Made by a program: the position numbers and the translations under genes. From Gammaproteobacteria bacterium (GTDB taxonomy: Bacteria > Pseudomonadota > Gammaproteobacteria > Tethybacterales > Persebacteraceae), in contig JBPCWZ010000010.1 in NCBI GenBank assembly GCA_051009015.1, positions 1 to 61,615 on the forward strand: a DNA stretch of 61,615 nt, given 5' to 3'. This document shows positions 11,193 through 61,615 of this stretch, piece after piece. The notes below the pieces were generated by a model. That model was given only the letters and a program-made list of their open reading frames with translations, was not told the origin of the DNA and ran no database searches. The first letter of the stretch is position 1. Every line of letters begins with the position of its first letter.

Positions 11193-11273
11193 ATGCCGCT
11201 TTTTCGCTTGGCGGTATCGCGCTGGCGGTTGTCGGCGGGCGCGGTTTTGATATTGCTAATGGCGCTGAGCGCC
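11193..11273 (+). other. Sec signal peptide of the giant protein
   Basis: In MPLFRLAVSRWRLSAGAVLILLMALSA|EGD there is a basic n-region (R5, R10, R12) and a hydrophobic core AGAVLILLMAL. The cleavage site is of the small-x-small type (LSA). Confidence 0.6.

Positions 11274-61615: not shown

What the first reader, a model, noticed from the sequence alone, without database searches (positions are those of the whole stretch)
11193..61615. One uninterrupted >50.4-kb ORF (>16,807 codons) occupies 82% of the window and is absent from the ORF track
A frame starting at ATG 11193 has no stop up to the window edge. Codon-by-codon reading of the first 3.6 kb and about 18 spot checks across the remaining 47 kb all stay in the same frame and keep giving the same protein motifs. 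The track contains no + strand ORF in this frame and no terminated ORF starting at 11193, which is only possible if the frame never closes. Even truncated, the product would be >1.6 MDa at about 100-110 Da per residue. That places it among the very few bacterial proteins above 15,000 aa that I know of, such as giants reported in Chlorobium chlorochromatii and Omnitrophota (recalled from memory). The 5' flank is plain core genome, with serC divergent 167 bp away. I see no integrase, tRNA or IS boundary and no adjacent type I secretion genes.
Basis: seen in the sequence. Interest (0 to 1): 0.95.

Follow-up and report, generated by a model that had tools for sequence, protein, structure and literature searches.

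The report
Giant inverse-autotransporter adhesin gene, 3' end missing
The 50-kb open reading frame is real and encodes the start of a surface adhesin of the intimin/invasin type, over 16,800 residues and 1.75 MDa, from an uncultured gammaproteobacterium. That is about three times longer than any member of this secretion family I could find described, but it is an extreme member of a known kind, not a new kind of system.

Summary
From ATG 11193 to the contig end there are 16,807 codons and no stop (chance about 1e-255). Codon usage matches the neighbouring housekeeping genes.

The window is a whole 61,615-bp MAG contig, so the 3' end is missing. A second assembly carries the same gene open for 15,999 codons, and its first 9.8 kb is identical.

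The product is a type Ve (inverse) autotransporter:
- a Sec-type signal peptide;
- an N-terminal 12-stranded barrel (Pfam IAT_beta; the model matches the invasin and intimin barrels at TM 0.77);
- a passenger holding at least 106 clear, and probably 150-170, Ig/cadherin-like domains of about 95 residues, only about 17% identical to each other;
- one Kelch beta-propeller embedded at residues 4902-5227.

Pfam and NCBIfam do not recognise the repeats. There are no DNA-level repeats, so array collapse or expansion during assembly is unlikely.

Relatives occur in sponge-symbiont Gammaproteobacteria (Tethybacterales) and in unnamed MAGs. The longest complete one found has 7,134 residues.

The most likely function is a surface fibre of 0.5 µm or more for attachment, exported N-to-C through its own barrel. 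This is an extreme variant of a known family. Expression, export and true length are untested.

The parts
11026..11192 (.). 167-bp divergent intergenic region between serC and the giant gene. It presumably holds both promoters and the ribosome-binding site (GGAG lies 14 nt before the ATG).
   Evidence: Sequence read. The consensus sigma-70 scan found no site that meets its criteria, so the promoter is not located.
11193..61613 (+). Giant ORF of 16,807 codons. It starts at ATG 11193 and is cut by the contig end, so there is no stop and the 3' end is missing.
   Evidence: No stops. Coding statistics match housekeeping genes. The same gene is called as 15,999 residues running off the contig end in GCA_973515615.1.
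11193..11276 (+). Sec-type signal peptide, about residues 1-28 (MPLFRLAVSRWRLSAGAVLILLMALSA|EG).
   Evidence: Read from the translation: three Arg, then a 13-residue hydrophobic stretch, then L-S-A. Modelled as a single N-terminal helix. No dedicated signal-peptide predictor was available.
11277..11714 (+). Presumed periplasmic region, residues 29-174. It is predicted helical at low confidence and has no LysM domain.
   Evidence: AlphaFold model, pLDDT mostly below 55 here. A Pfam scan of residues 1-600 gives only IAT_beta.
11715..12305 (+). 12-stranded outer-membrane beta-barrel (inverse autotransporter beta-domain), residues 175-371.
   Evidence: Pfam PF11924 IAT_beta, E 9.8e-18, 65 bits against a cut-off of 22.3. 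Twelve strands in the model, pLDDT 80-94. Foldseek top hits are invasin 4E1T and intimin 4E1S/5G26, E 4e-12 to 5e-11, TM 0.76-0.78 on the target.
12306..12842 (+). Linker with a short helix (residues 386-389) and the first beta-sandwich modules (residues 402-550), which begin the passenger.
   Evidence: Secondary structure of the model. This region is conserved in homologues (A2).
12843..61613 (+). Array of diverged Ig/cadherin-like domains of about 95 residues (residues 551-16807). There are 106 copies at i-E <= 0.01, about 45 further weak matches in the gaps, and 150-170 domains estimated from spacing. The last copy ends at the window edge.
   Evidence: Iterated profile search. Alignment A1. 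AlphaFold model of one copy, pLDDT 95.6, an eight-strand sandwich. Foldseek hits to protocadherin EC domains, the phage lambda tail-tube Ig-like domain, SraP and Rib. The profile's best PDB hit is intimin 1E5U, E 6e-4.
31314..31607 (+). The repeat copy that was modelled (residues 6708-6805). It shows the two conserved motifs, S-G-G-x(n)-Y-x-Y and A-D-D-D-H-P.
25896..26873 (+). Kelch-type beta-propeller embedded in the stalk, residues 4902-5227, with Ig-like repeats on both sides.
   Evidence: Pfam Kelch_1 32.6 bits (cut-off 20.1) and Kelch_6 25.9 bits (cut-off 25.3). The whole-propeller model PF24681 scores 41.9 bits, below its cut-off of 50. Flanking repeats at residues 4819-4901 and 5228-5297. 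The homologous propeller in P0044 is 32% identical.
9955..11025 (-). serC (phosphoserine transaminase), the divergent neighbour. It is the first gene of a housekeeping run serC-tyrS-grpE-dnaK-dnaJ.
   Evidence: NCBIfam TIGR01364, 449.8 bits, above its cut-off. Gene calls on L001.

Best explanation
The ORF is a genuine chromosomal gene for a giant type Ve (inverse) autotransporter adhesin.

Shown:
- An N-terminal signal-peptide-like sequence is followed by an intimin/invasin-type 12-stranded beta-barrel.
- More than 16,400 further residues form a chain of roughly 150-170 diverged Ig/cadherin-like domains.
- One Kelch beta-propeller sits about 30% of the way along.

Inferred from how intimin and invasin work:
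- The signal peptide takes the chain through Sec.
- The passenger threads through the barrel as a hairpin and is exported N-to-C. Sequential folding of the Ig-like domains outside the cell supplies the driving force.
- The chain stays anchored by its barrel.

My own further inference: because the anchor is made first, export can begin while the ribosome is still translating. Translation would take roughly 15-30 minutes at usual rates. This would make the inverted topology suited to a very long passenger.

At about 3.6-4.5 nm per Ig-like domain, the part seen here would extend 0.5-0.75 µm from the cell. The most likely role is attachment to a host or partner surface. The Kelch propeller, and whatever lies at the missing C-terminus, would be the binding modules. 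Relatives occur in sponge-symbiont Gammaproteobacteria, so the host may be a sponge or another invertebrate.
For: Real gene:
- No stops in 16,807 codons against 202-817 in the other frames, host-like GC3, and codon usage r = 0.88 with housekeeping genes.
- A second assembly has the same gene open for 15,999 codons, identical over 9.8 kb.
- There are no DNA repeats that could mislead an assembler.
- The only 12 cysteines fall in six close pairs, as expected for disulfides in an exported protein.

Inverse autotransporter:
- Pfam IAT_beta scores well above its cut-off.
- The model has twelve strands and matches the invasin and intimin barrels best.
- The homologues found with the N-terminal 1,500 residues all carry IAT_beta.

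Ig-like passenger:
- 106 profile matches with a regular period of 93-97 residues.
- A high-confidence beta-sandwich model and cadherin / Big_2 / Rib-type fold matches.
- The best profile hit in the PDB is intimin.

Kelch domain. It is conserved in the complete 7,134-residue homologue P0044.

Mechanism as known for the family: 12-stranded barrel, hairpin, N-to-C export driven by folding of Ig-like domains (review PMC6555100).

Host-associated relatives: Ca. Zeuxoniibacter abyssi and Ca. Persebacter sydneyensis. Zeuxoniibacter is a glass-sponge symbiont of the Tethybacterales (PMC11525543).
Against: - The 3' end is missing, so the tip domain and true length are unknown.
- There is no evidence of transcription, translation or surface display.
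- No promoter was recognised by the consensus scan.
- No inverse autotransporter near this size has been studied, so it is not known whether a self-contained type V system can export 1.7 MDa.
- The second assembly could be compared over only the first 9.8 kb.
- The source organism's habitat is not known. The sponge link rests on relatives of one domain.
- Pfam and NCBIfam do not recognise the repeats, so 'Ig/cadherin-like' rests on one structure model and weak profile hits.
Confidence: 0.8

Rival explanations
1. Assembly chimera. The contig joins passenger fragments from several paralogous inverse-autotransporter genes (relatives carry about 20 paralogues per genome), which would create an artificially long frame.
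For: The relative MEX2-MAG1 has about 20 paralogues of this family on fragmented contigs. Both assemblies break inside the gene. One related long-read contig, L002, is visibly chimeric. Only 9.8 kb of the 50 kb could be cross-checked.
Against: There are no repeats long or similar enough to bridge assembly k-mers: Tandem Repeats Finder finds none, and dispersed similarities are at most 75 nt at 60-90% identity. Each false join would keep the frame only one time in three and would often add stops, yet there are none in 50 kb. Composition changes smoothly along the gene rather than in steps. An independent assembly also reports at least 15,999 open codons.
Confidence: 0.06
2. The gene is real, but the product is not a single 1.7-MDa surface fibre. 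It might be silent, or it might be cleaved into shorter released pieces after export.
For: There is no expression evidence and no recognisable promoter. The burden of exporting 16,800 residues through a 12-stranded barrel is unprecedented. Complete relatives are mostly 1,100-3,800 residues, with one of 7,134.
Against: A silent gene would gather stops quickly, and none is present in 50 kb. The paired cysteines, the strong lysine depletion shared with relatives, and the conserved domain motifs all point to continuing selection on an exported protein. No protease domain or known autocleavage motif was found by Pfam.
Confidence: 0.12
3. The protein is exported as proposed, but its role is not adhesion. 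It could act as a spacer or coat that keeps host cells, phagocytic receptors or phages at a distance, or as a scaffold for cell-cell aggregation.
For: Most of the length is stalk with no recognisable binding module. Lysine is extremely depleted (0.45% against 8.2% in DnaK), which would fit protease resistance in a hostile host compartment. Relatives sit next to ankyrin-repeat genes. From memory, such genes are linked to evasion of phagocytosis in sponge symbionts.
Against: All characterised inverse autotransporters are adhesins or invasins (PMC6555100). Kelch propellers are typically binding modules. The two roles do not exclude each other.
Confidence: 0.2

Closest known systems
Intimin / invasin family: inverse autotransporters, type Ve secretion (E. 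coli intimin, Yersinia invasin and InvD, E. coli YeeJ)
   Same: Same order of parts: signal peptide, N-terminal 12-stranded IAT_beta barrel, then a C-terminal passenger of tandem Ig-like domains. The barrel model superposes on 4E1T and 4E1S at TM 0.76-0.78. The repeat profile's best match among solved structures is an intimin Ig-like domain.
   Different: - Size: over 16,807 residues and about 150-170 domains. A family survey gives 47 repeats in its largest member (PMC3008723; PMC9704523), and intimin has about five extracellular domains.
- The repeats are not recognised by the Pfam Big_1/Big_2 or Invasin models.
- There is no LysM periplasmic domain.
- A Kelch propeller is embedded in the stalk.
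- A lectin-like tip cannot be assessed because the end is missing.
P0044, an uncharacterised 7,134-residue inverse autotransporter on a Logan contig from SRR26493830 (L003)
   Same: It is the closest long relative found. The N-terminal 540 residues are 46% identical, with the barrel at the same position (150-411 against 150-413). It has the same repeat type (47 matches) and a Kelch propeller 32% identical to the one here.
   Different: It is complete (it has a stop and a downstream cupin gene) and less than half as long. It has two Kelch regions in its last third. Its genomic context differs: it is preceded by a small barrel-only gene and an ankyrin gene rather than serC.
Giant type I-secreted RTX adhesins (LapA, SiiE, the roughly 1.5-MDa Marinomonas ice-binding adhesin)
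   Same: They are also very long surface fibres built from about 100 tandem Ig-like domains that project a binding region away from the cell (from memory; SiiE is cited in PMC9704523).
   Different: Those are exported C-terminus first by a dedicated ABC/MFP/TolC system encoded nearby, and they are held by an N-terminal retention module. Here the N-terminus is an autotransporter barrel, and no type I genes lie in the 11 kb upstream. The downstream side is unknown.
Giant genes of Omnitrophota and Chlorobium chlorochromatii (up to 85,804 and 36,805 residues)
   Same: They are metagenome-derived ORFs of tens of kilobases that are often cut by assembly breaks and are proposed to act in cell-surface contact (bioRxiv 10.1101/2023.11.21.568195).
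   Different: They come from different phyla and have different, multi-enzyme domain content. They are not autotransporters. The present protein is smaller than the record holders.

Membership tests
Inverse autotransporter (type Ve secretion; intimin/invasin family) | N-terminal Sec signal peptide | tested here: met
   Residues 1-28 have a basic n-region, a 13-residue hydrophobic core and L-S-A before the likely cut site. They are modelled as one helix. This was judged by inspection, with no signal-peptide predictor.
Inverse autotransporter (type Ve secretion; intimin/invasin family) | 12-stranded beta-barrel of the IAT_beta family, placed N-terminal to the passenger | tested here: met
   PF11924 at 65 bits against a cut-off of 22.3. 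Twelve strands at residues 175-371. Best structural matches are 4E1T, 4E1S and 5G26, E 4e-12 to 5e-11, TM 0.76-0.78.
Inverse autotransporter (type Ve secretion; intimin/invasin family) | C-terminal passenger made of tandem Ig-like domains | tested here: met
   106 profile matches with a period of about 95 residues. A beta-sandwich model with pLDDT 95.6. Ig/cadherin-type fold matches. An intimin Ig-like domain is the best profile hit in the PDB, E 6e-4.
Inverse autotransporter (type Ve secretion; intimin/invasin family) | Linker that passes back through the barrel pore | tested here: inconclusive
   A 30-residue segment with a short helix (386-389) follows the last strand. I could not inspect its position inside the pore.
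Inverse autotransporter (type Ve secretion; intimin/invasin family) | Periplasmic LysM / peptidoglycan-binding domain (present in some members only) | tested here: not met
   There is no LysM hit in residues 1-600. Residues 29-174 are predicted helical at low confidence. This domain is optional in the family (PMC6555100).
Inverse autotransporter (type Ve secretion; intimin/invasin family) | Distal lectin-like or other binding tip at the C-terminus | not testable with these tools
   The ORF is cut by the contig end. No extension was found.
Inverse autotransporter (type Ve secretion; intimin/invasin family) | BAM-dependent insertion and surface exposure of the passenger | not testable with these tools
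   This needs an experiment.
Cadherin domain (Pfam PF00028) | Match to the family profile and the inter-domain Ca2+-binding motifs (DxNDN, DxD, LDRE) | tested here: not met
   No PF00028 hit in the whole ORF or in 69 single repeats. Only fold-level similarity to protocadherin EC domains, TM 0.5-0.69. The conserved A-D-D-D-H-P motif is not the cadherin linker motif. Some relatives do carry precomputed PF00028 hits.
Bacterial Ig-like domain group 2 (Pfam Big_2, PF02368) | Match to the family profile | tested here: inconclusive
   1 of 69 repeats matches, at E 0.011. The repeat profile hits the intimin Ig-like domain at E 6e-4 and the lambda tail-tube Ig-like domain by fold. The relationship is distant at best.
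Type I-secreted RTX giant adhesins | C-terminal RTX repeats and secretion signal, adjacent ABC/MFP/TolC genes, N-terminal retention module | tested here: not met
   The N-terminus is an autotransporter barrel. There are no RTX hits in 16,807 residues and no transporter genes upstream. The C-terminus and downstream genes were not seen.
Kelch-repeat beta-propeller | Several Kelch motifs forming one propeller | tested here: met
   Kelch_1 and Kelch_6 are above their cut-offs. The whole-propeller model PF24681 covers positions 8-220 of 221 at 41.9 bits, below its cut-off of 50. No structure model was made.

The most novel reading that the evidence does not exclude
The full-length chain may be made and displayed as a single type V passenger of at least 1.75 MDa, by far the largest known. 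That would mean a 12-stranded barrel with no ATP source can export more than 16,000 residues processively. It would most plausibly do so as a conveyor running from ribosome to Sec to barrel while translation is still under way. The result would be a fibre of at least half a micrometre that tethers an uncultured symbiont to its host.
Probability: 0.35. Interest if true: 0.7.

Novelty: new variant of a known kind. Interest (0 to 1): 0.5.

Why it matters
Type V secretion is the simplest export route across the outer membrane, and its energy source and capacity are still debated. A passenger about three times longer than the largest described, built from domains that standard libraries do not recognise, would set a new upper bound on that capacity. 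It also suggests a testable idea: the inverted topology, with the anchor made first, lets export start during translation, so length is not limited by periplasmic storage.

It also adds a candidate host-attachment factor for a group of little-studied, apparently host-associated Gammaproteobacteria. Finally, it shows that very long or contig-cut ORFs are poorly represented in the protein databases searched here.

Tried and rejected
- Extending the 3' end. An exact 30-mer from the window end was searched against JGI metagenome contigs and gave 0 hits. A pattern search there, using an alignment of the last 688 residues with P0043, found nothing.
- Protein search with the last 1,000 residues. It found only P0043, 48% identical. 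Its 7.8-kb contig L002 carries the region three times (two direct, one inverted) and looks like a long-read chimera, so it gives no information about the gene end.
- Checking whether the giant itself is catalogued. The look-up by window reference failed because the reference was too long. Searches with its N- and C-terminal parts never returned it.
- Looking for a second giant in the relative MEX2-MAG1. L028 is open over its whole 10.7 kb on a 42.9-kb contig. One query timed out, and a shorter one did not even recover the protein itself. The databases therefore under-sample such ORFs. The lack of any hit above 8,000 residues in the representatives search is only weak evidence that such proteins are rare.
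- First GTDB genome scan with a single sequence: nothing. The alignment-based scan worked.
- Pfam and NCBIfam on the whole passenger: no repeat family recognised.
- Sigma-70 consensus scan of the upstream region: no site found.
- Literature search for the accession numbers of related assemblies: only irrelevant hits.
- Housekeeping genes in the related loci, to place the organism: none present.
- Ideas considered and rejected: a mobile-element or island context (no tRNA, only XerD, host-like codon usage), and a type I RTX adhesin (the N-terminal barrel contradicts it).

Full report
**1. The observation**

The frame that opens at ATG 11193 runs to the last complete codon of the window (61613) with no stop in 16,807 codons. 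The nearest upstream in-frame stop is at 11028, and ATG 11193 is the first possible start after it. The N-terminus of the closest long homologue aligns from residue 8 to residue 8, which supports this start.

From base composition, the chance of no stop over this length is about 1e-255. The other five frames of the same DNA carry 202 to 817 stops. GC at the three codon positions (0.59/0.51/0.63) resembles dnaK and serC next door. Relative synonymous codon usage correlates at r = 0.88 with the four flanking housekeeping genes. The gene therefore looks native, not recently acquired.

The translated part weighs 1.748 MDa and has a pI of 5.06.

**2. Source and assembly**

Exact look-up of four flanking proteins shows that they come from an NCBI MAG labelled 'Gammaproteobacteria bacterium'. 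The longest contig on record for them is 61,615 bp, the length of the window. The window is thus a whole contig, and the gene is cut by the assembly.

A second assembly, GCA_973515615.1 contig CCXVMS010000008.1 (60,754 bp), carries the same locus. There the gene is called as 15,999 residues and again runs off the contig end. The 21 kb I could read from it (L001) is 99.8% identical to the window. All 37 differences lie upstream of the giant gene, and the first 9.8 kb of the gene is identical.

Tandem Repeats Finder reports nothing inside the ORF. The dispersed direct repeats are only motif-level similarities of roughly 30-75 nt at 60-90% identity.

**3. The N-terminus**

Residues 1-28 read as a Sec signal peptide (MPLFRLAVSRWRLSAGAVLILLMALSA|EG).

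Pfam finds the inverse-autotransporter beta-domain (PF11924) at residues 159-380, with 65 bits against a cut-off of 22.3. An AlphaFold model of residues 1-560, built with 17 homologues, shows twelve strands between residues 175 and 371 at pLDDT 80-94. A short linker helix and beta-sandwich modules follow. The model's best matches among solved structures are the transmembrane beta-domains of Yersinia invasin (4E1T) and EHEC intimin (4E1S, 5G26), with E 4e-12 to 5e-11 and TM 0.76-0.78 on the target. All other hits are generic barrels scoring far lower.

Residues 29-174 are predicted helical at low confidence and contain no LysM domain.

**4. The passenger**

Pfam and NCBIfam recognise no repeat family anywhere in the remaining 16,400 residues.

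A profile seeded from one unit and iterated within the protein converges on 106 copies of a 73-residue core. The usual period is 93-97 residues, from residue 551 to the very last residue of the window.

Most of the 37 gaps are about 120 residues, the size of one undetected domain. A relaxed search finds about 45 further weak matches in them. From spacing I estimate 150-170 domains.

The copies share S-G-G-x(n)-Y-x-Y near the middle and A-D-D-D-H-P near the end. Otherwise they are only about 17% identical on average. Adjacent copies (16.6%) are no more alike than distant ones (17.5%), and the most similar pair reaches 44%.

A model of one copy is an eight-strand beta-sandwich with pLDDT 95.6. 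It resembles protocadherin EC domains, the Ig-like C-terminal domain of the phage lambda tail-tube protein, the cadherin-like modules of SraP, and Rib domains (TM 0.5-0.69). By sequence profile, the best solved relative is an intimin Ig-like domain (1E5U, E 6e-4).

The uniformly low identity between neighbours explains the lack of DNA repeats. It is what one expects of an old array under selection against misfolding between adjacent domains; that principle is recalled from work on titin-type proteins and was not tested here.

**5. Other features of the passenger**

- A Kelch-type beta-propeller sits at residues 4902-5227 between two Ig-like copies. Kelch_1 and Kelch_6 are above their Pfam cut-offs.
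- Several other stretches of 220-490 residues match nothing. Two of them resemble each other weakly.
- The protein has only 12 cysteines, all in six close pairs. This fits disulfide bonds in an exported protein.
- Lysine is almost absent (75 residues, 0.45%) while arginine is 5.5%. Relatives share this (0.14-1.3% Lys), whereas DnaK from the same contig has 8.2%.
- Composition drifts along the gene. Ala/Gly/Val/Leu fall and Ile/Thr/Pro rise toward the 3' end.

**6. Relatives**

A search with the first 1,500 residues returned 36 proteins. All carry IAT_beta, the best is 49% identical over the N-terminal third, and most come from MAGs or metagenomes.

A scan of one genome per GTDB species, using an alignment of the N-terminal region, found 27 loci:
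- about 20 in a single MAG (Gammaproteobacteria bacterium MEX2-MAG1);
- others in Ca. Zeuxoniibacter abyssi, Ca. Persebacter sydneyensis, a sea-cave MAG and a complete 1.98-Mb MAG chromosome.

Zeuxoniibacter is a glass-sponge symbiont of the Persebacteraceae, order Tethybacterales (PMC11525543).

Complete ORFs in these loci have 470-3,768 residues.

A search of 1.84 billion representative proteins with the repeat profile found 10,069 proteins at E <= 0.001, so the repeat type is widespread. Among the best 150, the longest has 7,798 residues and the most repeats is 61. Only five of the representatives checked also have the barrel. The best of these is P0044, a complete 7,134-residue protein on a 23.9-kb contig. 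Its barrel is at the same position, its N-terminus is 46% identical, and it has a homologous Kelch propeller.

Caveat: neither the window's own product nor the long open frame of L028 could be recovered from these databases. Very long or contig-cut ORFs are under-sampled there, so the size comparison is a lower bound on what exists.

**7. Mechanism**

The architecture is that of intimin and invasin. [quoted passage not shown] I infer the same route here.

No accessory secretion genes are needed. This fits the plain housekeeping neighbourhood: serC, tyrS, grpE, dnaK and dnaJ on the opposite strand, then xerD and a DAHP synthase.

Two further points are my own inference:
- The barrel is synthesised first, so insertion and export could start long before the ribosome finishes. 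Translation would take on the order of 15-30 minutes at typical bacterial rates. This would avoid parking a 1.7-MDa unfolded chain in the periplasm.
- At 3.6-4.5 nm per Ig-like domain (recalled from the invasin rod), the visible part would reach 0.5-0.75 µm.

The Kelch propeller and the unseen C-terminus are the candidate binding modules. Attachment to a host or partner surface is the most likely role.

**8. Rivals**

- **Assembly chimera of paralogous passengers.** This is unlikely. There are no bridging repeats, the frame never breaks, composition changes smoothly, and a second assembly agrees. But only 9.8 kb could be cross-checked.
- **A silent gene or a processed product.** This cannot be excluded without expression data. 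The absence of any stop and the signs of selection (paired cysteines, family-wide lysine depletion, conserved motifs) argue against decay.
- **A non-adhesive spacer or protective coat.** This remains possible and is compatible with the same export mechanism.

**9. Comparison with what is known**

A survey of the intimin/invasin family reported 47 repeats in its largest member (PMC3008723; restated as 2-47 repeats in PMC9704523). The present protein has at least twice, and probably more than three times, that number.

Proteins above 10,000 residues are documented in several bacterial phyla, and records of 36,805 and 85,804 residues exist (bioRxiv 10.1101/2023.11.21.568195). Size alone is therefore not unprecedented. 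I found no paper describing an inverse autotransporter of this size or this clade of them.

**10. Verdict**

The gene is an extreme, previously undescribed variant of a known family (type Ve autotransporter adhesins). It has an unrecognised Ig-like repeat type and an embedded Kelch propeller.

It is a good test case for the capacity of type V secretion and for symbiont attachment. It is not a new kind of system, it is incomplete, and it lacks any expression evidence. Interest 0.5.

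Noticed in passing
window 7357-8619 (- strand): The grpE gene encodes 420 residues, about twice the usual size. It has an acidic N-terminal extension of 22-residue tandem repeats (66-nt period, 4.1 copies at 8122-8389), a 15-residue repeat (7924-8066) and an 11-residue repeat near the C-terminus (7398-7498).
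   Followed up: partly
window 2631-2780, 959-1034 and 1366-1419: All 37 differences between the window and the second assembly (L001) lie upstream of the giant gene. They cluster in short stretches with indels, one just 5' of the likely DAHP synthase start. In L001 this produces a 543-residue gene call that is probably over-extended.
   Followed up: partly
window 11193-61613: Lysine is extremely depleted (0.45% Lys against 5.5% Arg). Relatives share this (0.14-1.3% Lys), whereas DnaK from the same contig has 8.2%. The cause is unknown. Protease resistance on the cell surface is one guess.
   Followed up: partly
window 11193-61613 (residues 593/608, 2161/2189, 5142/5178, 7237/7279, 12603/12605, 16538/16541): The protein has only 12 cysteines in 16,807 residues, all in six close pairs, which suggests disulfide bonds.
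   Followed up: no
window 11193-61613: Composition shifts steadily along the gene. Ala/Gly/Val/Leu fall and Ile/Thr/Pro rise toward the 3' end, GC drops from about 0.61 to 0.55, and the AT skew changes sign in the last 4 kb.
   Followed up: no
L002 1-7759 (ENA ERZ25072283, ctg146402): This related contig holds the homologue of giant residues 16120-16714 three times, twice direct and once inverted. It looks like a long-read assembly chimera and should not be used to infer gene structure.
   Followed up: yes
L004-L030, especially L028 (JAHRAH010000133.1, a 42.9-kb contig): The MAG 'Gammaproteobacteria bacterium MEX2-MAG1' carries about 20 paralogues of this autotransporter family. One frame (L028) is open over the whole 10.7 kb that could be read, on a 42.9-kb contig, so it may be another very long member.
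   Followed up: partly
L003 283-1615: The complete 7,134-residue homologue P0044 is preceded by a 296-residue gene consisting of little more than an IAT_beta barrel, and by a small ankyrin-repeat gene. Another relative (P0004) fuses ankyrin repeats to the barrel.
   Followed up: no
window 11193-61613 and L028: The protein databases searched returned neither the window's own giant product nor the long L028 frame, although the neighbouring small proteins are present. Very long or contig-cut ORFs seem to be missing, which biases any size comparison.
   Followed up: partly
window 29691-30806 and 32148-33296 (residues 6167-6538 and 6986-7368): Two non-repeat inserts of about 375 residues in the stalk are weakly similar to each other (29% over 196 residues) and match no Pfam family. 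Other unassigned inserts lie at residues 1991-2367, 10867-11225, 12412-12779 and 13829-14318.
   Followed up: partly
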